64,000 nucleotides of DNA from Candidatus Nanoarchaeia archaeon (GTDB taxonomy: Archaea > Nanobdellota > Nanobdellia > Woesearchaeales > WJIZ01), in contig JANQND010000011.1 in assembly GCA_028279765.1 (NCBI GenBank), positions 30,976 to 94,975 on the forward strand. The letters run 5' to 3'. This document shows positions 2,546 through 24,175 of this stretch, piece by piece. Below the pieces are notes generated by a model, which did not search any database, was not told where the DNA came from, and saw only the letters and a program-made list of their open reading frames with translations. The translations under genes were made by a program, and so were the position numbers. Each line of letters begins with the position of its first letter. Position 1 is the first letter of the stretch.

Positions 2546-3328
2546 CTATTTCTGATAGAAATGATCTAACACATAATTTTGCGATCCTACCTTGAATCCA
2601 TTTTCGAGGGCATAATGCACGTACTCAACGGATTTCTTTACTGATTCTTTCATAGTGTTTCCTTTTGCCAGGTGCGCTGCAATTGCTGATGATAGTGTGC
2701 AGCCGGTTCCGTGGCCTTCTTTGTCCAGTTTTTTGTTTTGGATTTCAGTGAATTCTTCTCTATCGTAGAATAAGTCTGATACTTTATCTCCTTCTAAGTG
2801 CCCGCCTTTGAGCAAAACACTTTTGCAGCCTAATTTATGGATGTCAATTGCTGCTTTTTTCATCTCTTCTGGTGTTTTAATGTCGAATCCTACCAGCACT
2901 TCTGCTTCGGGAATGTTTGGTGTAACGATGTCAGCTAAAGGAAAAAGCTTTGTTTTGAGGGTTTCTATTGCTTCGTCTTCTAAGAGTTTTGCACCGCTTG
3001 CCGCAATCATAACCGGATCGAGAACGATATTTTTTAGGTTGTGTTTTTGTATGTTTTCAGCAACGCATGCAATGATTTCTTTGTTTGCCAGCATACCAAC
3101 TTTTACTGCATCCGCTCCAATATCAGTTACCACCGCTTCAACCTGTTTAGAAATGACTTCTAACTCCGTATTCTGTACTGCGGTTACTTCCTTGCTGTTT
3201 TGTGCGGTAATAGCAACAATTGCAGATGAACCCCATACTCCTAGTGACGCAAAGGTTTTCAGGTCTGCCTGAATGCCTGCCCCTCCCCCAGAATCCGATC
3301 CTGCAATCGTTAATGCCTTTGGTTTCAT
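2546..3328 (-). CDS. thiD: Hydroxymethylpyrimidine/phosphomethylpyrimidine kinase
   Basis: MKPKALTIAGSDSGGGAGIQADLKTF... is the canonical ThiD/PfkB-like N-terminus. Lies with tenA and thiL in a thiamine salvage cluster. Confidence 0.85.
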   Translation of the reverse strand: MKPKALTIAGSDSGGGAGIQADLKTFASLGVWGSSAIVAITAQNSKEVTAVQNTELEVISKQVEAVVTDIGADAVKVGMLANKEIIACVAENIQKHNLKNIVLDPVMIAASGAKLLEDEAIETLKTKLFPLADIVTPNIPEAEVLVGFDIKTPEEMKKAAIDIHKLGCKSVLLKGGHLEGDKVSDLFYDREEFTEIQNKKLDKEGHGTGCTLSSAIAAHLAKGNTMKESVKKSVEYVHYALENGFKVGSQNYVLDHFYQK

Positions 3329-3426
3329 GCATAGAATGAATGAGATGTGGTTTTTAAGAATTATGATTGAAAATTTAGTATTTATAAGCCGATACCTTTA
3401 TAAATCAATCTCAAATCCAAGAATGC

Positions 3427-3714
3427 ATGAAAAGAATTGGTACTTCACGACGCAAGACACGAGCTAAGTTTACAAAGCATTTTCGAAAAAAAGGCAAAAT
3501 TGGCCTTTCCCAGTATTTTCAAACTTTTAATGAGGGTGACAAAGTACAGCTTAGTGTTGAGCCTGCTGTTCAGAAGGGTATGTATCACCCACGATTTATG
3601 GGTAAGGCAGCAACTATTTTAGGTAAAGTAGGAACCTGCTATGAAGTATCTATTCAGGACCAACAGAAAAAGAAAACATTGATTGTTCATCCAGTACATT
3701 TGAAGAGGGTATAA
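3427..3714 (+). CDS. rpl21e: 50S ribosomal protein L21e
   Basis: 95-aa basic protein (SRRKTRAKFTKHFRKKG...GKVGTCYEV) of L21e type. Followed by rpoF, as in archaea. Confidence 0.85.
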   Translation: MKRIGTSRRKTRAKFTKHFRKKGKIGLSQYFQTFNEGDKVQLSVEPAVQKGMYHPRFMGKAATILGKVGTCYEVSIQDQQKKKTLIVHPVHLKRV

Positions 3715-3716
3715 GT

Positions 3717-4052
3717 ATGTCACAACCAGAACTTGTTAAAGAAACGCCTATGAGCCTTGCAGAGGTAAACCTGGAAGTTGCTAAAATTAAGAAAAGAGAC
3801 AAGGAGCTGAGCTTTCGAACCCAGCGAACCGACGAGTACCTACAGCATTTTGCTGTGAAAGATGCTCACAAGCTTGTTGAGACCCTCAAAAAGCTGGAAA
3901 TTCCACGATTAAAAGAGGAACATATTGCAAAGATTGTTGATTTGCTTCCTAAGACTGTTGATGATCTGAAAGGTGTTCTTCAGGGTTACACCGTTACCGT
4001 AACCAAGGATAACCTGAAGAAGATCGTTGATGAAGTTGTTAAGTTTGCTTAA
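3717..4052 (+). CDS. rpoF: DNA-directed RNA polymerase subunit F (Rpb4 homolog)
   Basis: 111-aa ORF immediately downstream of rpl21e, reproducing the conserved archaeal rpl21e-rpoF gene order. Its size and charged helical character fit RpoF. Confidence 0.6.
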   Translation: MSQPELVKETPMSLAEVNLEVAKIKKRDKELSFRTQRTDEYLQHFAVKDAHKLVETLKKLEIPRLKEEHIAKIVDLLPKTVDDLKGVLQGYTVTVTKDNLKKIVDEVVKFA

Positions 4053-12970: not shown

Positions 12971-13074
12971 GGGCTCTTAGCTCAGCCTGGTTAGAGCGAT
13001 CGCCTCTTACGCGACTGGTTATATACCAGTATGAAGAAAGCGATAGGTCGGGGGTTCGAATCCCCTAGGGCCCA
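12971..13074 (+). tRNA. tRNA-Lys(CUU) with about 29-nt intron in the anticodon arm
   Basis: Cloverleaf folded by hand. Acceptor GGGCTCT/AGGGCCC, D-stem GCTC/GAGC, anticodon stem ATCGC/GCGAT, loop CUCUUA(A/C), T-stem GGGGG-TTCGAAT-CCCCT, discriminator A. The intron (~cgcgactggttatataccagtatgaagaa) contains its own hairpin. No CCA is encoded. Confidence 0.75.
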
Positions 13075-14463: not shown

Positions 14464-15504
14464 ATGGATATGAGTGAGAGCATGGCTTCGGAAAAAAAAT
14501 GTTTAACTGGGCAATGCCCTCCTTTGCAAAAGGAAGATGAGCAGGTAGTCAAGCTTAGCGAGGGTTCGGGAGGCAAGGAGATGCACCGGCTTATTGCTGA
14601 GGCAACATCCCACTTTAGTTCTGGAGACTGGAAGCATACTGATGAAGACTCCTCTTTGCTTGCGGTGAATCAGAATAACGTCTTGTTTACTACTGATTCT
14701 TATGTGGTCACTCCTCTTTTTTTCCCCGGAGGAGATATAGGGAAGCTTGCGTTTTGCGGTACGGTCAATGATCTTTCGGTGATGGGCGCAAAGCCACTTG
14801 GGATCTCTCTCGGGCTTATTATTGAGGAAGGATTTTCGAAGTCGGACCTCTTTGCGATACTCAAAACCATCGGGGAGCTTTCTAAGCAGGCCGGAATACC
14901 GATTGCTACTGGTGATACCAAGGTTATGGAGAGAGGATCGGTGGATAAACTTATTATCAATACGAGCGGGATTGGGGTTGCGCAGAATGTTCTCGATGAG
15001 CAGATAGAACCCGGGGACAAGATCATTGTTTCCGGGGGTATCGGCGAGCATGGCACTGCACTTCTTGCAAAACGCTTTGAGCTTGAATCTTCAGTTAAAA
15101 CCGACAGTAAACCACTCTGGGAAGAGATTAACAGTGTCGTACACCTGGTGAAGCAGGCAAAGGATATTACCAGGGGCGGGCTTGCCTCAGTGCTTAATGA
15201 GATTGCACAAAAAGAGAAGAAACAACTGACAATTATTGAAGAGTCTATTCCACTGCTTGGCGAGGTACGGGCATTGACAGAAATTCTGGGCATTGATGCG
15301 TATTCGCTTGCCTGCGAGGGAAGGTTTGTTTGTATTTGCTCTGCAAAACATGCAGATGCTGCTGTTGAAAAACTACGAGTGTTTAATACGATGGCCTGTG
15401 TCGTTGGGGAGGTTCAGGATGGCAGCGATGTTATTGTGCAGACACGATTCGGGAAAAAAATTCTGAGTATGCCCTCGGGCAATATCGTTCCGAGGATTTG
15501 TTAG
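14464..15504 (+). CDS. hypE: Hydrogenase maturation factor HypE (carbamoyl dehydratase)
   Basis: AIR-synthase/PurM-like fold ending in ...PRIC with a C-terminal Cys, as in HypE. Confidence 0.8.
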   Translation: MDMSESMASEKKCLTGQCPPLQKEDEQVVKLSEGSGGKEMHRLIAEATSHFSSGDWKHTDEDSSLLAVNQNNVLFTTDSYVVTPLFFPGGDIGKLAFCGTVNDLSVMGAKPLGISLGLIIEEGFSKSDLFAILKTIGELSKQAGIPIATGDTKVMERGSVDKLIINTSGIGVAQNVLDEQIEPGDKIIVSGGIGEHGTALLAKRFELESSVKTDSKPLWEEINSVVHLVKQAKDITRGGLASVLNEIAQKEKKQLTIIEESIPLLGEVRALTEILGIDAYSLACEGRFVCICSAKHADAAVEKLRVFNTMACVVGEVQDGSDVIVQTRFGKKILSMPSGNIVPRIC

Positions 15505-17645
15505 AAATTAGTTTTCAGATAATAAGCAATTTGTCCGAAACTAATTCCTCCGTCTCCGCTTGGAACCTGCTTATTAAGATATACTCCTTTGTCGATCATA
15601 TAGGAGGACATGATTGTGTTGTATGCACACCCTCCTGAGAAGACTATCGGTTTCTTTTGTTCTGAAGCTATTTCGTGCAATCCTTTTGCAAGATAGAGCT
15701 GAGCGGTAGCTGCAAGCCTTTTCCTGTCTTTTTCTTTGTTTTCGATGAGGTACCTGAATAGAGGGGTAGTGAGTAAAACGTTATTTTCAATGACCGGCTC
15801 CATATCATAGGGTATGGATGAATGCGCTTCCAGCAGCATAGCTGGCCTTCCTTCATAGGTTCTCTCATTGCAAAGTCCCAGCATGAATGCGGCAGCATCT
15901 AAGATTCTCCCGCAGCTACTGGTTAGAGGACAATTGAATTGCTCATTGAGCTGCTTTCTCATTATGGCTAGTTCTTTTTGCGTGAAATAGTTTCGCATGT
16001 GCTTACTGCATTCTTCAGGAGGGAGGAATTTTGACAAAATGGAGAAAAGCATTTTTGCTGGATATTTCGCTGCAGAGTCGCCCCCCAGCTGATAGTGCTG
16101 CTCAAGATGTCCCGTTCGCTTGTTATTGTAAAATACCTCTCCCCCCCATATTGTCTCATCCTCACCGTAGCCTAGTCCATCACAGACGATTGCTGCGAAA
16201 TCTGTTAGATTGTGCTCTTGTGCGACACTGCAGGCATGAGCTTTGTGGTGCTGCACTCTTATCAGCGGAATATTCCACTCTTCTGAGAGTTCCTGTGCAT
16301 ATATCGAGGTATTGTAGGCGGGATGCGCATCTGCAAGTATCACCTCTGGTTTGCACTGAGTAAATGCAAGGAACTTGCTTACCATTTTTTTATAGGAATT
16401 GAAGGTGTTTGCATCTGAGGTTGTCCCCATGTAGGGAGAGAATATTGCTTTCTTGTCTTTGAATAGGCAGAAGGTATTGCTTAATTCTGCTCCCAGAGCG
16501 AGTATCTGTTTATGACATGAGGTTTTTAGGGGGATTGACTGTGGGACAAATCCCCTGCTTCTTCTTATCAGGAGGTTTTTGTTTTGGATGATTTTTACCA
16601 GAGAATCATCAATGGGGTTTTCTATTGGCCTGGTGTGATTGAGAATATTTTGTACGTTCTGCTGGCTGCTTGCGGTGGTGATAGGTTGATCGGAGATATT
16701 TGAGGAGGTCATGACAATAGGCTCACCGATGTAATCAAAAAGAAGGTAGTGAAGAGCGGTATAAGGCAGCATGATCCCAATCGTATCAAGCTCGCTTATT
16801 TCTTTCAGGGATGCTTTCTTTTTGAGAATGAGGATGGGGCGCTGTACGGACTGGAGAATGTCTGCTTCTTTTTTCGATATGTGAGCTATTTTTTTTGCCA
16901 TATCGATGTCTCTGCACATAACGGCGAAGGGTTTATGCGGCCTTGCTGTTATTGCTCTGAGTTCCTTGATTGACTCTTTTTGAAGGCTGCAGGCCAAATG
17001 GAATCCTCCGATTCCTTTTATGGCTACTACTTTGCTATTCTTAATGAGTTTAACCGTTTGCTCTATGAGTTCCAGCTCATTTGCGCTTTTAACTTCTCTC
17101 CCTTCTCTGAATAACTGCAGTCTTGGACCGCAGTTGTGACAGGCAATGGTCTGTGCATGATACCTTCTGTCTTTGGGGTCAGTGTATTCCCTATGGCATT
17201 CCGGGCACATCTCAAAAGAATCCATCGTTATTGTTTTTCGATCGTAGGGGCTTTTTTTTGCGATAGAGAAGCGGGGGCCGCAGTTCGTGCAGGTAGTGAA
17301 GTAGTAGTTGTGCCTTCTGCTTGTACTATCCTTGAGTTCTTTTTGGCAATCTTTGCAGAGGAACAGATCAGGCGGGATCTCAGCAAATCCTTTTCCTTCA
17401 CTTTCTTTTATGGTAAAATCATTGAAGTGTTTTTCTGATGGTTTTACCTCGTATGACTCGATTTTTGCAAGTTCAGGAACACCCTTTAGAATTCGTACAA
17501 ACTTTTCTTTATCGTTTACCTCAACGATCACGCCTCCTCCAGTATTTTGAACATATCCTCTTAGTCCTGCTTTTTTGCAGGCATTATAGATATATGGCCT
17601 AAACCCCACTCCCTGAACGATGCCTTTGATGATAAAGGTGTACAT
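15501..17645 (-). CDS. hypF: Carbamoyltransferase HypF
   Basis: Acylphosphatase-like N-terminus (VQGVGFRPYIY), paired Zn-finger CxxC repeats, a YrdC-like domain and a Kae1-like domain. Size 714 aa. Confidence 0.85.
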   Translation of the reverse strand: MYTFIIKGIVQGVGFRPYIYNACKKAGLRGYVQNTGGGVIVEVNDKEKFVRILKGVPELAKIESYEVKPSEKHFNDFTIKESEGKGFAEIPPDLFLCKDCQKELKDSTSRRHNYYFTTCTNCGPRFSIAKKSPYDRKTITMDSFEMCPECHREYTDPKDRRYHAQTIACHNCGPRLQLFREGREVKSANELELIEQTVKLIKNSKVVAIKGIGGFHLACSLQKESIKELRAITARPHKPFAVMCRDIDMAKKIAHISKKEADILQSVQRPILILKKKASLKEISELDTIGIMLPYTALHYLLFDYIGEPIVMTSSNISDQPITTASSQQNVQNILNHTRPIENPIDDSLVKIIQNKNLLIRRSRGFVPQSIPLKTSCHKQILALGAELSNTFCLFKDKKAIFSPYMGTTSDANTFNSYKKMVSKFLAFTQCKPEVILADAHPAYNTSIYAQELSEEWNIPLIRVQHHKAHACSVAQEHNLTDFAAIVCDGLGYGEDETIWGGEVFYNNKRTGHLEQHYQLGGDSAAKYPAKMLFSILSKFLPPEECSKHMRNYFTQKELAIMRKQLNEQFNCPLTSSCGRILDAAAFMLGLCNERTYEGRPAMLLEAHSSIPYDMEPVIENNVLLTTPLFRYLIENKEKDRKRLAATAQLYLAKGLHEIASEQKKPIVFSGGCAYNTIMSSYMIDKGVYLNKQVPSGDGGISFGQIAYYLKTNF

Positions 17646-17823: not shown

Positions 17824-18813
17824 TTGGTGTACTTTATTTTGCATCCTTTTCTGCAGGCAATCCTAGCTAGTTTTGTGTTAGCCTATGTTTTTTATCCCAT
17901 TTACACATTTTTTCGCAGAACTCTTCGCTCAAAGAATCTTGCCGCTCTTCTGGTAAGTGTCTTAGTTGTACTTGTATTTTCGCTTCCTATTGTCTTTGTT
18001 GCGAACTCGCTTAGCCAGGAGGCAAGAGTAAACTATGTCTTCATCAAGAAAATCCTTGCAACCGGCGACATCGTAGAGGGGGAGTGCGACCCGGAAAACC
18101 CTATCTGCAGGCTGGAGGGATTTCTCGGAGAGTATATTGCTGATCCTCAAATTAAATTCCAGCTCACCAGCGGCCTTACGCGCGTAACTGACTTCTTTGT
18201 TAATTTTGCAGGTGACATCATTTTTTCTATACCTTTGTTCATCCTGAACTTTTGTGTTATGGTCTTTATTATTTTTTATCTGCTTAAAGAAGGAGATGTG
18301 CTGGTGTACAGGCTTAAACGGCTTATCCCGCTCAAGCAAATCCACCGAACGAATATTTTTGATAAGCTCAAGGACGTGACTTTTGCGGTTATCTACGGGC
18401 ATATTACGGTTGTTGCAGGCCAGGCGGCAATTGGGGGGCTTGCCCTTTGGATATTCGGAGTGCGAAGCCCTTTCCTTTGGGCTATTGTGATGTTTTTCTT
18501 CGGGCTTATTCCTTTCCTTGGGACCGGGGTGGTATGGGTGCCTGCAGTTATCTTTAAAGCGATTAATCAGGAACCCGGTGCAGCAATCGGCCTGCTTATT
18601 GTTGGCCTGTTCATATCAACAGCAGATAATTTCATCAAACCTAAAATTATTTCCGGGAGAGCAGATGTTCATCCAGTATTGGTGTTGCTCGGTGTAATCG
18701 GAGGCTTGCTTGTTTTTGGGGGAATTGGTATTATCGTAGGCCCTGTTATTCTCTCCTTGTTCATTACTTTTATTGAAATCTATGAGGCGGAACATCTTGA
18801 AGCTAAAAGTTAA
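17824..18813 (+). CDS. AI-2E family transporter (PerM/UPF0118 permease)
   Basis: Multi-TM protein with a glycine-rich C-terminal TM region typical of this family. Confidence 0.6.
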   Translation: MVYFILHPFLQAILASFVLAYVFYPIYTFFRRTLRSKNLAALLVSVLVVLVFSLPIVFVANSLSQEARVNYVFIKKILATGDIVEGECDPENPICRLEGFLGEYIADPQIKFQLTSGLTRVTDFFVNFAGDIIFSIPLFILNFCVMVFIIFYLLKEGDVLVYRLKRLIPLKQIHRTNIFDKLKDVTFAVIYGHITVVAGQAAIGGLALWIFGVRSPFLWAIVMFFFGLIPFLGTGVVWVPAVIFKAINQEPGAAIGLLIVGLFISTADNFIKPKIISGRADVHPVLVLLGVIGGLLVFGGIGIIVGPVILSLFITFIEIYEAEHLEAKS

Positions 18814-20281
18814 GCGGCTGGGAATATCAACAGGAGGCCCGCTAGTGGCTATTATCAATGAGGAGGATGCGAAGGTTTTGGACCTTCATCCTCTGGACAG
18901 AATTAAGATAACTAAAGGAAAATCCATTGAAACAGTGGTTGTGGATATAGGAAAAAAAAGTGTTGTTCCGAAGGGAACTATTGGGGTCTTTGATGAGCTG
19001 ACTGCATCCCTTCCTCTAAAGGATCGCGATTCGGTAGCGATTAAAGTTGCCAAGAAACCGGTTTCTCTGGACTATATCAAAAAAAAGCTTGATGGCTATA
19101 GCCTGAGCAAGAAAGAAATTGACCAGATTGTATGGGATATTGTTCATAACAGATTAAGTGATGTGGAGCTGACGTTTTTCATCGCTGCATCCTACTGCAA
19201 CCCAAATAACATGGATGAGACCGTCTGGCTTACGCGGGCCATTGCTAATGAGGGGGATCGACTGCAGCTTAAGGAAAAAAAGATTATCGATAAGCATAGC
19301 ATAGGCGGTATTCCCGGAAATCGCACTACCCTGGTAGTTGTCCCGATCATGGCAGCTGCGGGCTACACGATGCCAAAGACCAGTAGCAGGGCGATTACTT
19401 CTCCTGCAGGCACTGCAGACACCATGGAGGTGCTTGCGAGTGTTGAATTCAGCCTCAAGAAAATGAGGGAGATTATTACTAAGGCTAAGGCCTGCATTGT
19501 ATGGGGTGGTGCCCTTAATCTTGCTCCTGCTGATGATAAGATCATTAATGTGGAGAAATCGTTGATGATTGATGCCGAGTCTCAATTGCTTGCATCTATT
19601 ATGGCAAAGAAGCACTCGGTTTCTTCTACTCATGTCATTATTGATATTCCGATTGGCCCTAATACCAAGATTACTGACCGCAAAAAGGCTGAGCACCTGA
19701 AATATAAGTTTAAACAACTGGGAACTAAATTGGGGATGAAGATAAGTGTGATACTCACTGACGGCAAAGAGCCTATCGGTAATGGAATCGGCCCTGCGCT
19801 TGAGGCGCGCGACGTATTGAAAATCCTGCGGCAGGATGATGATCGACCCCTTGATCTCGAAAAGAAATGCCTTGCGATGTGCACTCAGCTGTTTTCCCTG
19901 ATGGGAAAGAGGAACGGGCTTACGCTCTCAAAACAACTCCTGCAATCCGGAAAGGCGTATGAGAAGATGCAGCACATCATTAAGCTGCAGGGAGGAAATG
20001 CCCGAATAAAACCGGAAGAGATTCCTCTCGCGCGCTTTGAATATGATGTTATTGCAAGCAAGAGCGGGAAAATCAAATCCATCAACAACCTCTTTGTTGC
20101 GAAGATCGCGCGCATTGCCGGTGCTCCGCAAAATAAGGGTGCAGGGATTTACTTGTATAAGCATATTGGCGAAACCTTAAAAAAGGGAGAGCGTATTATG
20201 ACTGTCTATGCCGGAACCAAGAGCAAGATTGATTATGTCGAGCAGGTTCTGGAAGGGATGGATGATATTGTTGTGTATTGA
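18773..20281 (+). CDS. AMP phosphorylase / thymidine phosphorylase family (archaeal DeoA-like, about 500 aa)
   Basis: Has the N-terminal extension characteristic of archaeal AMP phosphorylase plus pyrimidine-nucleoside-phosphorylase core motifs (SIGGIPGNRTT...TSSRAITSPAGTADTME). Confidence 0.75.
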   Translation: MKSMRRNILKLKVKRLGISTGGPLVAIINEEDAKVLDLHPLDRIKITKGKSIETVVVDIGKKSVVPKGTIGVFDELTASLPLKDRDSVAIKVAKKPVSLDYIKKKLDGYSLSKKEIDQIVWDIVHNRLSDVELTFFIAASYCNPNNMDETVWLTRAIANEGDRLQLKEKKIIDKHSIGGIPGNRTTLVVVPIMAAAGYTMPKTSSRAITSPAGTADTMEVLASVEFSLKKMREIITKAKACIVWGGALNLAPADDKIINVEKSLMIDAESQLLASIMAKKHSVSSTHVIIDIPIGPNTKITDRKKAEHLKYKFKQLGTKLGMKISVILTDGKEPIGNGIGPALEARDVLKILRQDDDRPLDLEKKCLAMCTQLFSLMGKRNGLTLSKQLLQSGKAYEKMQHIIKLQGGNARIKPEEIPLARFEYDVIASKSGKIKSINNLFVAKIARIAGAPQNKGAGIYLYKHIGETLKKGERIMTVYAGTKSKIDYVEQVLEGMDDIVVY

Positions 20282-20290
20282 GGAACGAAC

Positions 20291-20503
20291 ATGCCAAGAC
20301 CAGGATCAATTATACCAAAGGCACCTGTTGCCAAGGTTATGCAAAATGCAGGAGCGAAACGCGTTTCCGATGATGCGACAGAGGCTATGGTGCAGTTTTT
20401 AATGGATTATTCTTTGACCGTGAGCGAGAGAGCAGTTCGCATTGCCCGGCACTCGGGCCGAAAGACCGTGAAGGCAGGCGATATTAAAGTTGCGGTGAAG
20501 TGA
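20291..20503 (+). CDS. Archaeal histone (HMf-type histone fold)
   Basis: 70 aa. PKAPVAKVMQNAGAKRVSDDA...RIARHSGRKTVKAGDIKVAV matches the archaeal histone consensus. Confidence 0.9.
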   Translation: MPRPGSIIPKAPVAKVMQNAGAKRVSDDATEAMVQFLMDYSLTVSERAVRIARHSGRKTVKAGDIKVAVK

Positions 20504-20551
20504 TTTCTTGGAATAGTTTTATAAAATAGTGTTTTGTTCTGAAATGTTTAT

Positions 20552-20646
20552 GGGCTGGTAGTTAAATCTGGAAGCTGGGAACAGTTGGATAATATAACGC
20601 GCCGCTGGCAGCGGTGAGGCTCCGGGTTCAAATCCCGGCCAGTCCA
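20552..20646 (+). tRNA. tRNA-Ala(GGC) with non-canonical intron (about 18-20 nt) in the D-loop
   Basis: Folded by hand. Acceptor GGGCTGG/CCAGTCC with a G3:U70 pair, the alanine identity element. U8-A9, D-stem GTTA/TAAC enclosing a 30-nt loop (normally 8-11), anticodon stem CGCCG/CGGTG, loop CUGGCAG, T-arm CCGGG-TTCAAAT-CCCGG, discriminator A. Confidence 0.65.
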
Positions 20647-20654
20647 TTTTTTTC

Positions 20655-21071
20655 TTAAAAATCAATCGCCATTTCTAATAACTGCTTTTTATACTTAACC
20701 ATGGCATCGAGAATGTCGTTTGATGAGATGATTCCCTGGAGCGCTCCGTTTTCAAGAACGATGACTCGTTTGATTCCTTTATCTCTCATTAATCCCATGG
20801 CTTTGGAACTATGATCTGTTGGCTTGACAGAAACAGGGTTTTTGTTCATAACCTCCCTGATAAATACTTTTTTTGGTGAGATTCCTTTGGCGATGACTTT
20901 GTTTATGATGTCTTTGTTTGAGACTACCCCGATAACCTTTTTATTTTCAATGGTATCGAAGACAACCACTAAGCCACGATTATATTTTCCCATCTCTTCG
21001 GCTGCTTTTTGTACCGTGTCTCCACCGAATACGGCAACGGTGTCTTTGTTCATGAGGTCTTTTACGTCCAT
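20655..21071 (-). CDS. CBS domain pair protein
   Basis: Two CBS repeats in a 138-aa protein. Confidence 0.75.
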   Translation of the reverse strand: MDVKDLMNKDTVAVFGGDTVQKAAEEMGKYNRGLVVVFDTIENKKVIGVVSNKDIINKVIAKGISPKKVFIREVMNKNPVSVKPTDHSSKAMGLMRDKGIKRVIVLENGALQGIISSNDILDAMVKYKKQLLEMAIDF

Positions 21072-22639: not shown

Positions 22640-24175
22640 ATGCTGGTAGTGATTAATTTTGGGTCCCAACTTGCACATTTGATAGCAAGAAGGGTGCGCG
22701 AACTGGGTGTGTATTCTGAGATTGTTCCTTCTGATATTTCTGCTAAAAAGCTTGCATTAATGAGCCCATCAGGCATTATTCTCTCTGGCGGACCTTCTTC
22801 AGTCTATGAGAAGGGGGCACCTGCATTGGATGATGCTATCTTTGATCTGGGTATTCCTGTTTTAGGAATCTGCTATGGCTTGCAACTGATTGGGAAGCGG
22901 TTTGGTAAGGTAAAGAACCATGCTATCAAAGAATATGGCAAGGCTATGCTTGCGGTAAAGAAGACAGGGAAGCTTTTGAATACACTAGGTAAGGAAGAGC
23001 AGGTGTGGATGAGCCATGGTGATGCAATTACTTCCCTGGATAAAGATTTTCAGATTATCGGCTCTACTGACTCCTGCTCTGTTGCGGCAGTTGAGAACAC
23101 GAAGCAGAATATCTACGGTGTTCAGTTCCATCCGGAAGTCGTGCATACGAAAAAAGGAAAACAAATTCTTAAGAATTTCGTATTTGGGATCTGCAAGTCT
23201 AAAAAAGACTTCAATATTTCTGATCTAAAAGAAAAAATTATCACTGAAATACGAGAAGAAGTAGGTGATGAAGAAGTGCTGATGGCTACTTCCGGAGGAG
23301 TTGATTCTACTGTTGCTGCGGCTTTGCTGCATGAGGCTATCGGCGAGCGGTTACATTGCGTGTTTATTGACCATGGTTTGATTCGAAAGAACGAGAAAAA
23401 GGAAGTAGATACTGCCTATAAACGATATATGAAGTTTGAGCATTATCATTCCCTTGATGCTTCCTCAATTTTTTTGCAAAAGCTTAAGGGAGTAAGTGAT
23501 CCTGAACAAAAACGAAAAATCATTGGGCACACGTTTATCGAAGTATTTGAGAAGAAGGCACGAGAACTCAAGAACAAGCATCCAAATATCACGTTCTTAG
23601 GTCAGGGAACGATTTATCCTGATCGTATCGAGTCCGCCCAGCCCTCAAAGAATGCTTCAAAGATTAAATCTCATCATAATCTTACCCTGCCTGAGAAAAT
23701 GGATCTGAAGATCATTGAACCGCTGAAGGAATTTTATAAGGATAATGTCCGACAGATGGGTACATTGCTGAATATCCCTTCTTCTCTTCTTGATCGGCAC
23801 CCCTTTCCGGGACCTGGCCTTGCTATTCGGATCCTTGGAGAAATTACTCCGCGCAGAATTTCTATCCTGCAGGAAGCAGATGCAATCTTTATTCACGAAT
23901 TGAAGGATTCAGGATATTATGCGAAAACCTGGCAGGCGCTTGCTGCTTTGCTTCCGGTAAAGACCGTTGGAGTAATGGGAGATTCACGAACATATGAGTA
24001 TATGATTTCGCTTCGGGCGGTGACCTCTGTTGATGCGATGACTGCTGATTGGGCAAAACTTCCACATTCTCTTTTGGAAAAGATTTCTACCCGTATTGTT
24101 AACGAAGTGAAGGGCGTGAATCGCGTTGTGTATGATATCACTCAGAAGCCTCCTGGTACAATTGAGTATGAATAG
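22640..24175 (+). CDS. guaA: GMP synthase (glutamine-hydrolysing), fused GATase and ATP-PPase
   Basis: N-terminal class I GATase (GICYGLQL, HPE) fused to a PP-loop domain (SGGVDSTV) and C-terminal dimerisation domain. Size 511 aa. Confidence 0.9.
   Translation: MLVVINFGSQLAHLIARRVRELGVYSEIVPSDISAKKLALMSPSGIILSGGPSSVYEKGAPALDDAIFDLGIPVLGICYGLQLIGKRFGKVKNHAIKEYGKAMLAVKKTGKLLNTLGKEEQVWMSHGDAITSLDKDFQIIGSTDSCSVAAVENTKQNIYGVQFHPEVVHTKKGKQILKNFVFGICKSKKDFNISDLKEKIITEIREEVGDEEVLMATSGGVDSTVAAALLHEAIGERLHCVFIDHGLIRKNEKKEVDTAYKRYMKFEHYHSLDASSIFLQKLKGVSDPEQKRKIIGHTFIEVFEKKARELKNKHPNITFLGQGTIYPDRIESAQPSKNASKIKSHHNLTLPEKMDLKIIEPLKEFYKDNVRQMGTLLNIPSSLLDRHPFPGPGLAIRILGEITPRRISILQEADAIFIHELKDSGYYAKTWQALAALLPVKTVGVMGDSRTYEYMISLRAVTSVDAMTADWAKLPHSLLEKISTRIVNEVKGVNRVVYDITQKPPGTIEYE

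What the first reader, a model, noticed from the sequence alone, without database searches (positions are those of the whole stretch)
20552..20646. tRNA-Ala(GGC) carrying an apparent intron in the D-loop rather than the anticodon loop
A hand-folded cloverleaf gives perfect acceptor, anticodon and T arms, the G3:U70 alanine identity pair, U8-A9, and a 4-bp D-stem GTTA/TAAC. The D-loop is 30 nt where 8-11 is normal, which implies an 18-20 nt insertion (aatctggaagctgggaac...). Non-canonical intron positions are known in some archaeal lineages but are uncommon and lineage-specific. Standard tRNA finders may miss this gene or misfold it.
Basis: seen in the sequence. Interest (0 to 1): 0.55.

Follow-up and report, generated by a model that had tools for sequence, protein, structure and literature searches.

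The report
Archaeal alanine tRNA with D-loop intron
This is a real alanine tRNA gene from a tiny DPANN (Woesearchaeota-like) archaeon, interrupted in its D-loop by a 21-base (or 19-base) protein-spliced intron; this kind of intron is already known in archaea, so the find is a sound but ordinary example.

Summary
Window 20552-20646 (+) folds as a full tRNA-Ala(GGC) cloverleaf whose D-loop is 30 nt long. [quoted passage not shown]

Removing 21 nt (20572-20592) gives a 74-nt tRNA. It is 100% identical to the spliced tRNA-Ala(GGC) of a related Woesearchaeota MAG, which has a normal D-loop and a canonical 37/38 intron instead. A second register, shifted by one base on each side (19 nt, 20573-20591), is a textbook-strict BHB and cannot be excluded.

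Seven other distinct tRNA-Ala genes (GGC, CGC and UGC anticodons), from named Woesearchaeota MAGs, unclassified or mislabelled MAG contigs and one metagenome contig, carry an intron at the same site, with compensatory changes in the BHB helices.

D-loop BHB introns are already documented, including by in-vitro splicing in Aeropyrum pernix. At least 70 archaeal tRNA-Ala genes in public genomes have inserts 5' of the anticodon loop, mostly in the D-arm.

Verdict: a new member of a known kind, of low to moderate interest. The more interesting side result is that closely related genomes carry the intron of this tRNA at three different positions. Splicing itself is inferred, not shown.

The parts
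20552..20646 (+). Complete pre-tRNA-Ala(GGC) gene, 95 nt, with no encoded CCA
   Evidence: Sequence; cloverleaf is the MFE fold; my own T-arm plus acceptor scan finds it; the exons equal the L129 tRNA
20552..20571 (+). 5' exon in the preferred register: acceptor 5' strand, U8 A9, D-stem 5' strand GUUA, D-loop AAUCUGG up to G19
20572..20592 (+). Intron, 21 nt, AAGCUGGGAACAGUUGGAUAA, between G19 and U20 (preferred register). The alternative strict-BHB register is 20573-20591 (19 nt), between A20 and A20a
   Evidence: Removing 20572-20592 gives 74/74 identity to spliced L129. The 21-mer is unique in the window
20593..20646 (+). 3' exon: U20 A21, D-stem 3' strand UAAC, G26, anticodon arm, variable loop, T-arm, acceptor 3' strand, A73
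20566..20593 (+). Bulge-helix-bulge motif. Preferred register: central helix 20566-20569 with 20587-20590 (A-U, U-A, C-G, U-G), 5' bulge 20570-20572 (GG^A), 3' bulge 20591-20593 (AA^U). Strict register: helix 20567-20570 with 20586-20589, bulges 20571-20573 (GA^A) and 20590-20592 (UA^A), closing pair 20566 with 20593
   Evidence: Local MFE of the D region picks the preferred register. The enumerator finds the strict register. Covariation
20573..20586 (+). Intron hairpin (the h' helix of the BHB): AGCUG-GGAA-CAGUU
   Evidence: The helix covaries in all three counted pairs
20607..20609 (+). Anticodon GGC
20517..20526 (+). A/T-rich TTTTATAAAA, about 30 nt upstream of the mature 5' end. Plausible archaeal TATA box (inferred)
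   Evidence: Read from the sequence. No archaeal promoter tool was available; the sigma-70 scan is not relevant
20647..20653 (+). Run of 7 T directly after A73. Plausible archaeal transcription stop (inferred)
   Evidence: Read from the sequence

Best explanation
Window 20552-20646 is a functional tRNA-Ala(GGC) gene of a Woesearchaeota-like DPANN archaeon. It is interrupted in the D-loop by a short intron of the protein-spliced, bulge-helix-bulge type.

In the precursor, D-loop nucleotides 15-18 (AUCU) pair with intron nucleotides GGAU to form the central 4-bp helix. A 5-bp intron hairpin (AGCUG-GGAA-CAGUU) forms one flanking helix, and the D-stem forms the other.

The archaeal splicing endonuclease (EndA) would cut between the 2nd and 3rd nucleotide of each 3-nt bulge: after G19 at 20571|20572, and before U20 at 20592|20593. 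An RtcB-type ligase would then join the exons. The product is a 74-nt tRNA with the ordinary 9-nt D-loop AAUCUGGUA, to which CCA is added.

Shown here: the sequence, the cloverleaf, the BHB geometry, its conservation and covariation, and identity of the predicted product to a homologue's product.

Inferred: that cleavage and ligation happen, which enzymes do it, and the exact register. A cut one base inward on each side, removing 19 nt and leaving the D-loop AAUCUGGAAUA, is the alternative.
For: 1. The cloverleaf with all Ala identity features is the MFE fold.

2. BHB motifs with 4 bp between two 3-nt bulges sit exactly around the insert. They are rare in shuffles, 1.6%, or 0.17% with a helix of at least 4 bp.

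3. Removing 20572-20592 gives 74/74 identity to the spliced tRNA-Ala(GGC) of L129. L129 comes from Woesearchaeota MAG GCA_018221205.1, whose neighbouring AMP phosphorylase is 73% identical to the window's. Its tRNA scores 52.6 bits against Rfam, has a normal D-loop AAUCUGGUA, and has a 37/38 intron. L134 has the same intron-less D-arm.

4. ARAGORN gives a full 7/7-acceptor cloverleaf only after in-silico splicing.

5. Seven other distinct tRNA-Ala genes (L042, L046/L124, L098, L100, L101, L125, L035/L108) have an intron at the same site. About 98% of cells are paired, 15-17 pairs have changes on both sides, and 0/500 shuffles reach the observed covariation score. Pair 16:32 switches U-A to C-G, and all three intron-helix pairs covary.

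6. The A15:U48 Levitt pair fits the 5' GG block being the real D-loop (sequence).

7. The identical gene appears in a second assembly, L133.

8. Literature support:
- BHB introns in the D-loop are cut by EndA in vitro (A. pernix tRNA-Thr, PMC3241643).
- Positions 20/21 and 20b/21 are known intron sites (PMC4090602, PMC5829648).
- DPANN EndAs carry an L3 loop that is associated with many disrupted tRNA genes (PMC5829648).
- Cleavage falls between the 2nd and 3rd bulge nucleotides (PMC12397907).
Against: There is no RNA evidence for splicing.

No EndA or ligase gene was found in the window. Only 10 ORFs were tested with Pfam, plus a phmmer search seeded with an M. jannaschii EndA sequence recalled from memory, so this is a weak negative.

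In the preferred register the 3' bulge is followed by an A:A mismatch, so that side is relaxed rather than a strict 3-nt bulge. Its pair 15:33 is also broken in 2 of the 8 family members. The strict register is 100% paired in all 8, but those members were selected with an enumerator that required exactly that pairing, so the figure is partly circular.

It is unknown whether the genome has another, uninterrupted tRNA-Ala(GGC).
Confidence: 0.88

Rival explanations
1. The same BHB intron, but cut in the strict register. The central helix is UCUG/UGGA (20567-20570 with 20586-20589), the bulges are GA^A and UA^A, the intron is 19 nt (20573-20591), and the mature D-loop is the 11-nt AAUCUGGAAUA (intron between positions 20 and 20a).
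For: This is the only register that forms a textbook hBHBh' with two clean 3-nt bulges. The central helix and the closing pair 15:36 are paired in 8/8 family members. ARAGORN accepts the 76-nt product. An 11-nt D-loop lies within the normal range (general tRNA knowledge).
Against: The product would carry two extra A's compared with the otherwise identical tRNAs of L129 and L134, whose D-loop is AAUCUGGUA. The central helix has two G:U pairs, and the exon-side helix is a single A-U pair next to an A:A mismatch. The local MFE prefers the other register. The 8/8 pairing is partly due to how the members were selected.
Confidence: 0.3
2. The true gene is the shorter, intron-less tRNA-Ala(GGC) that ARAGORN calls at 20578-20646, and the upstream 26 nt are just flanking sequence.
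For: ARAGORN reports it. Rfam aligns 20583-20638 to tRNA positions 9-63 with a D-arm GUUG/UAAC.
Against: The acceptor stem of that call has about 4 of 7 pairs and lacks G3:U70 (bracket string). Its D-loop has no GG. The Rfam match is partial and below gathering, 28.1 against 29 bits. The 95-nt reading has a 7/7 acceptor stem with G3:U70, and its exons match a homologue exactly.
Confidence: 0.02
3. The gene is a pseudogene disrupted by an insertion, or the insert is retained as an extra D-loop hairpin in the mature tRNA. Nothing is spliced.
For: There is no RNA data and no EndA was seen in the window. Relatives show messy rearrangements at this locus: a 5' fragment next to a LAGLIDADG ORF in L129, and a duplicated 5' end in L134.
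Against: The exons carry no mutation relative to L129 (74/74). The insert has BHB geometry placed so that removal restores the ancestral sequence exactly. The same-site insert is kept, with compensatory changes, in seven other distinct genes across three anticodons. A TATA-like box and a T-run flank the gene. A 30-nt D-loop would disrupt the G18/G19 contacts with the T-loop (general tRNA knowledge).
Confidence: 0.07
4. The insert is a self-splicing (group I or group II) intron, or a fragment of a mobile element.
For: Group I introns do occur in archaea, including Woesearchaeota (PMC6125680, title and abstract only). A LAGLIDADG ORF lies beside the homologous tRNA in L129.
Against: At 21 nt the insert is far too short for a ribozyme. 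There is no Rfam hit in 20450-20750 other than tRNA and noise. There is no second copy in the window.
Confidence: 0.01

Closest known systems
Aeropyrum pernix pre-tRNA-Thr2(UGU) with a BHB intron in the D-loop (Hirata et al. 2011, PMC3241643)
   Same: A BHB intron lies inside the D-loop of an otherwise normal tRNA. Purified EndA alone removes it in vitro, and the mature tRNA is seen in cells.
   Different: It is a crenarchaeon with an (alpha-beta)2 EndA carrying the Crenarchaea-specific loop. The isotype differs. Here the host is a DPANN archaeon whose EndA type was not seen, and there is no experimental evidence.
Methanopyrus kandleri pre-tRNA-Glu(UUC) intron at 20b/21 (Kaneta et al. 2018, PMC5829648)
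   Same: The intron sits in the 3' part of the D-loop, just after G18 G19, and has a relaxed (HBh') motif on one side. This resembles the preferred register here.
   Different: That tRNA also has a canonical intron. It is a euryarchaeal hyperthermophile, and its own EndA cut the D-loop intron poorly in vitro.
Non-canonical tRNA introns of Thermoproteales and Thaumarchaeota, and intron transposition (Sugahara 2008 and Fujishima 2010, as summarised in PMC4090602; tRNAscan-SE 2.0, PMC8450103)
   Same: BHB introns occur at 20/21, 59/60 and many other positions. Related genomes carry introns at different positions of the same tRNA, as seen here for the window, L129 and L004/L134.
   Different: The lineage differs (DPANN). 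The tRNAscan-SE 2.0 BHB models were trained on Cren-/Euryarchaeota and Thaumarchaeota introns, not on DPANN introns.
Same-site D-loop introns in tRNA-Ala genes from Woesearchaeota MAGs, unclassified or mislabelled MAG contigs and one metagenome contig, found here (L042, L046/L124, L098, L100, L101, L125, L035/L108)
   Same: The insertion point is the same. Seven of the eight same-site genes, the window included, share the exon context ARYYYGG|AA...UGGR-NAA|UA and a short intron hairpin. They occur in GGC, CGC and UGC isoacceptors.
   Different: The intron interiors are unrelated in sequence and vary from 19 to 36 nt in the preferred register (17-34 nt in the strict register). The window's intron sequence is unique.

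Membership tests
Archaeal BHB (EndA-spliced) tRNA intron | Two 3-nt bulges on opposite strands, separated by a 4-bp helix and flanked by helices (hBHBh' or a relaxed form) | tested here: met
   The strict motif is at helix 20567-20570 with 20586-20589. The shifted motif, relaxed on its 3' side, is the local MFE. Shuffles of the loop seldom give such a motif.
Archaeal BHB (EndA-spliced) tRNA intron | Cutting between the 2nd and 3rd bulge nucleotides and joining the exons yields a canonical tRNA | tested here: met
   The 21-nt removal gives 74/74 identity to spliced L129. ARAGORN gives full cloverleaves for both the 74-nt and the 76-nt product. The cleavage rule is from PMC12397907.
Archaeal BHB (EndA-spliced) tRNA intron | BHB helices are maintained by compensatory change in homologues | tested here: met
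   about 98% of cells paired, 0/500 shuffles reach the covariation score, and slid controls give 32-48% paired. Caveat: the members were selected with a BHB filter and the intron loops were trimmed by hand.
Archaeal BHB (EndA-spliced) tRNA intron | The host encodes a splicing endonuclease (EndA) and an RtcB-type ligase | tested here: inconclusive
   None was found among the 10 window ORFs scanned with Pfam, nor by phmmer with a remembered M. jannaschii EndA. The window covers only 64 kb of the genome. DPANN lineages are reported to encode EndA (PMC5829648).
Archaeal BHB (EndA-spliced) tRNA intron | The intron is actually excised in vivo or in vitro | not testable with these tools
   No RNA data are available.
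tRNA-Ala | G3:U70 identity pair, A73 discriminator, NGC anticodon, canonical cloverleaf | tested here: met
   G at 20554 pairs with T at 20643. A73 is at 20646. GGC is at 20607-20609.
Rfam RF00005 tRNA (as an unspliced gene) | Score at or above the 29-bit gathering threshold | tested here: not met
   The match is 28.1 bits, partial, at 20583-20638, and is absent at gathering threshold. This is expected for an insert the model does not allow. The homologue L129, with an identical product, scores 52.6 bits.
Self-splicing group I/II intron | A ribozyme core of 200 nt or more with conserved helices | tested here: not met
   The insert is 21 nt, and there is no Rfam intron hit.

The most novel reading that the evidence does not exclude
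The tRNA-Ala(GGC) gene next to the histone/AMP-phosphorylase cluster may be a hot spot of recent BHB-intron turnover in this Woesearchaeota clade.

Genomes whose flanking protein is only 72-75% identical carry tRNAs with identical or near-identical exons, but the intron position differs:
- D-loop 19/20 in the window.
- The canonical 37/38 site in L129.
- The T-loop near 59/60 in L004/L003 and L134.

The D-loop site is also shared by all three tRNA-Ala isoacceptors in other DPANN MAGs. In L134, two inserts in one gene share a 25-nt stretch.

Together these would point to active intron transposition or gene conversion in DPANN, of the kind proposed for Thermoproteales, possibly linked to mobile DNA (the LAGLIDADG ORF abutting the gene in L129).
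Probability: 0.45. Interest if true: 0.45.

Novelty: new member of a known kind. Interest (0 to 1): 0.27.

Why it matters
It matters mainly for annotation. The gene is mis-called by ARAGORN and missed by the Rfam tRNA model, so MAGs of this lineage can look as if they lack tRNA-Ala(GGC). That distorts completeness and codon-usage inferences for DPANN archaea.

The public BHB-intron models in tRNAscan-SE 2.0 were trained on Cren-/Euryarchaeota and Thaumarchaeota introns (PMC8450103), so DPANN examples like this family of eight same-site genes could improve them.

Biologically, it adds a well-supported case to a known pattern: DPANN lineages with broad-specificity endonucleases accumulate disrupted tRNA genes (PMC5829648). 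The comparison with L129, L004 and L134 also offers a clean natural example of one tRNA carrying its intron at three different positions in close relatives.

Tried and rejected
1. ARAGORN with the intron option (-i) still returns only the truncated gene.

2. The metagenome-contig scan with a family-specific pattern gave only 2 loci, one of them the same contig as L046, so it added a single new member, L125.

3. Synteny look-ups of L001, L002, L126-L128 and L130-L132 found no tRNA-Ala after the AMP phosphorylase/histone genes, or the contig ended first.

4. The search for EndA in the window was negative but not exhaustive. It used phmmer with an M. jannaschii EndA sequence recalled from memory and Pfam on 10 mid-sized ORFs.

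5. A third BHB register was rejected. It has helix CUGG/UUGG, a 17-nt intron and a 13-nt D-loop. The helix contains three G:U pairs, the D-loop would be over-long, and ARAGORN distorts the D-arm of its product.

6. The alternative that the second GG block (AGUUGGAUAAUA) is the real D-loop was rejected. It would give G15 opposite U48, whereas the first block gives A15:U48, and the L129 and L134 D-loops match the first block.

7. About 50 of the 120 genome-scan matches are false positives of my pattern. They are mostly from bacterial genomes, with a chance GGGCNNGTAG upstream of a normal tRNA-Ala and an acceptor stem below 7/7.

8. The sigma-70 promoter and intrinsic-terminator scan is not informative for an archaeon.

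Full report
**1. The observation**

- a 7/7 acceptor stem with G3:U70;
- U8-A9;
- a 4-bp D-stem;
- anticodon GGC;
- a 5-nt variable loop;
- a canonical T-arm;
- discriminator A73.

ViennaRNA returns this cloverleaf as the minimum-free-energy structure, with an additional hairpin (AGCUG-GGAA-CAGUU) inside the D-loop (-37.4 kcal/mol, z = -2.0).

The standard finders stumble as predicted. ARAGORN reports only a truncated 69-nt tRNA-Ala(GGC) at 20578-20646, with about 4 of 7 acceptor pairs. The Rfam tRNA model does not reach its gathering score, and gives a partial 28.1-bit match at 20583-20638.

My own scan for a perfect T-arm plus a 7/7 acceptor stem finds exactly two genes in the window: this one, and a tRNA-Lys(CUU) at 12971-13074 with a 37/38 intron (Rfam 56.4 bits).

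**2. The organism**

The gene lies 48 nt downstream of an archaeal histone gene (20291-20503), which follows an AMP phosphorylase gene (18773-20281). The best named homologues of the AMP phosphorylase are from Candidatus Woesearchaeota / "Nanoarchaeota" MAGs, at 59-75% identity. The window is about 41% G+C. The host is therefore a DPANN archaeon of the Woesearchaeota type.

**3. Anatomy of the insert**

In what follows, index 1 = window position 20552.

An archaeal BHB motif has two 3-nt bulges on opposite strands, 4 bp apart (PMC4090602). The endonuclease cuts between the 2nd and 3rd bulge nucleotide (PMC12397907). Two registers, one base apart, satisfy this geometry.

Preferred register (also the MFE of the D region alone):
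- Central helix A15-U39, U16-A38, C17-G37, U18-G36.
- 5' bulge G19 G20^A21.
- 5-bp intron hairpin 22-26 with 31-35.
- 3' bulge A40 A41^U42, followed by an A14:A43 mismatch and then the D-stem.
- Intron = index 21-41 = window 20572-20592, 21 nt.
- Mature D-loop AAUCUGGUA.

Strict register:
- Central helix U16-A38, C17-G37, U18-G36, G19-U35.
- Bulges G20 A21^A22 and U39 A40^A41.
- 4-bp hairpin and closing pair A15-U42.
- Intron = 20573-20591, 19 nt.
- Mature D-loop AAUCUGGAAUA.

A third register (17 nt) has three G:U pairs in the central helix and leaves a 13-nt D-loop. I rejected it.

Shuffling the 30-nt loop 20,000 times gives a strict BHB that leaves a 7-11-nt D-loop containing GG in 1.6% of cases. 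With an intron helix of at least 4 bp, it does so in 0.17%.

A15 matches U48 (a Levitt pair). This supports the first GG block (AAUCUGG) as the true D-loop.

**4. Comparative evidence**

(a) L133, a Logan assembly of run SRR20820735, carries the identical histone-tRNA stretch, including the insert. Whether that run is independent of the window's source is unknown.

(b) L129 comes from Woesearchaeota MAG GCA_018221205.1, whose AMP phosphorylase is 73% identical to the window's. It has a tRNA-Ala(GGC) at 3911-4014 that scores 52.6 bits against Rfam. Its D-loop is the normal 9-nt AAUCUGGUA, and it has a 30-nt intron at the canonical 37/38 site. Its spliced sequence is identical, 74 of 74 nt, to the window gene with 20572-20592 removed. 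This is the main reason I prefer the 21-nt register: the BHB cleavage rule applied to that register restores exactly the sequence that a relative has without any D-loop insert.

(c) L134 has the same intron-less D-arm (GUUA AAUCUGGUA UAAC) but an insert of about 89 nt in the T-loop. L004/L003 have a 9-nt D-loop and an insert of about 23 nt in the T-loop. One orthologous or near-orthologous tRNA therefore carries its intron at three different positions in close relatives.

(d) I scanned one genome per GTDB species for tRNA-Ala genes with 31-61 nt between G10 and position 32. Seventy of the 120 matches have a 7/7 acceptor stem and an anticodon stem of at least 4/5 pairs. They come from Bathyarchaeia, Nitrososphaeria/Thaumarchaeota, Woesearchaeota, Aenigmatarchaeota, Micrarchaeota, Hadarchaeota, Thermoproteales and Asgard MAGs. 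The rest are false positives of the pattern, mostly from bacterial genomes. Inserts 5' of the anticodon loop, mostly in the D-arm, are therefore widespread in archaeal tRNA-Ala genes.

(e) Seven other distinct genes have the insert at the same site as the window: L042, L046 (= L124), L098, L100, L101, L125 and L035 (= L108). Six of them share the window's context A-R-Y-Y-Y-G-G|A-A...U-(G/A)-G-R-N-A-A|U-A (L100 matches it except for the last intron base). They occur in GGC, CGC and UGC isoacceptors, and the intron interiors are unrelated in sequence.

I trimmed the variable intron loops by hand to give an 89-column alignment (A1). On it, both registers are about 98% paired, with 15-17 pairs changed on both sides. 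None of 500 shuffles reaches the observed covariation score (0.70 against 0.24-0.25), and slid controls give 32-48% paired. Pair 16:32 alternates U-A (5) and C-G (3), and all three counted intron-hairpin pairs covary.

The pairs that distinguish the registers do not settle the question:
- Strict register: G19:N29 is G-U 7 and G-C 1; pair 15:36 is paired in 8/8.
- Preferred register: A22:U29 is A-U 7 and G-C 1; pair 15:33 is paired in 6/8.

The 8/8 figures are partly circular, because I selected the members with a strict-BHB filter.

(f) D-loop introns are not specific to Ala. L001, the closest NCBI relative, has a 98-nt tRNA-Val(GAC) with a D-loop BHB insert.

**5. Mechanism**

The best-supported mechanism has these steps:
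1. Transcription from an A/T-rich box (TTTTATAAAA, 20517-20526) to the T-run at 20647-20653. Both signals are inferred from the sequence.
2. [quoted passage not shown]
3. Cleavage in both bulges by the archaeal splicing endonuclease.
4. Ligation by an RtcB-type ligase.
5. CCA addition, since CCA is not encoded.

Nothing in steps 2 to 5 was observed here. They rest on established knowledge of archaeal tRNA splicing. D-loop BHB introns are cut by EndA alone in vitro in A. pernix (PMC3241643). [quoted passage not shown]

I did not find EndA in the window, but 64 kb is a small part of the genome. The canonical introns of the window's tRNA-Lys and of L129 lack a strict BHB by my enumerator. This fits a lineage whose enzyme tolerates relaxed motifs, and so fits the relaxed 3' side of the preferred register.

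**6. Comparison with what is known**

Non-canonical positions such as 20/21 and 59/60 are listed in reviews (PMC4090602). M. kandleri tRNA-Glu has an intron at 20b/21 (PMC5829648). tRNAscan-SE 2.0 searches for such introns by default in archaeal mode, using BHB models trained on Cren-/Euryarchaeota and Thaumarchaeota (PMC8450103). I found no paper that describes this particular site in Woesearchaeota, but the kind of element is well known.

**7. Verdict**

This is a real tRNA-Ala(GGC) gene with a D-loop BHB intron. Confidence in the class is about 0.9. Confidence in the 21-nt boundaries is about 0.6, against about 0.3 for the 19-nt boundaries.

Interest is low to moderate (0.27). The intron-position turnover among close relatives is the part worth a follow-up.

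Noticed in passing
window 12971-13074 (+): A second tRNA, tRNA-Lys(CUU), 104 nt, with an intron of about 29 nt at the canonical 37/38 position. Rfam scores it 56.4 bits, but ARAGORN does not report it. My strict-BHB enumerator finds no perfect motif at its splice sites, so the motif is relaxed.
   Followed up: partly
L004 3129-3225 (+) and the end of L003: At the syntenic spot just after the histone gene, a related genome (AMP phosphorylase 73% identical) has a tRNA-Ala(GGC) with a normal D-loop but an insert of about 23 nt in the T-loop, near 59/60. ARAGORN misses it.
   Followed up: partly
L129 2946-4014: Right after the histone gene lies a 30-nt 5' fragment of a tRNA-Ala-like gene (GGGCCAGTAGTTAAACCTGGTATAACACCC). 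About 0.94 kb follows, containing a LAGLIDADG_3 ORF (3168-3920) that abuts the complete tRNA-Ala(GGC) at 3911-4014. No matching 3' half was found. This may be a footprint of a mobile element inserted at the tRNA gene.
   Followed up: partly
L134 3648-3903 (+): The ortholog has the 10-nt 5' end GGGCTGGTAG repeated, with 82 nt between the copies, and an insert of about 89 nt in the T-loop. The two inserts share a 25-nt stretch that is 21/25 identical (…AAAAATCTC.TAAAAT…). This hints at duplication or transposition of intron sequence within one gene.
   Followed up: partly
L001 from 2006 (+), 98 nt: The closest NCBI relative (GCA_023140175.1) has a tRNA-Val(GAC) with a D-loop BHB insert that ARAGORN missed in the unspliced locus. 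D-loop introns in this clade are therefore not restricted to tRNA-Ala.
   Followed up: no
L100 (NZCP01000004.1, labelled Woesebacteria) and L101 (DATDVD010000103.1, labelled Coxiellaceae): Contigs labelled as bacterial carry archaeal-style tRNA-Ala(UGC) genes with the same-site D-loop BHB intron. They are probably mis-binned or mislabelled DPANN contigs.
   Followed up: no
L098 5685 and 7164 (+): One 8-kb stretch of an unclassified archaeal MAG (nzgw41) holds two tRNA-Ala genes (GGC and CGC), both with inserts in the D-arm.
   Followed up: no
window 15501-17645 (-), 22640-24175 (+): Neighbouring genes include a HypF-like carbamoyltransferase (714 aa; HypF domains are recorded on the same gene in L133) and a 511-aa ORF that I read as a single-chain GMP synthase. 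The GMP synthase reading comes from the translation alone and was not tested.
   Followed up: no
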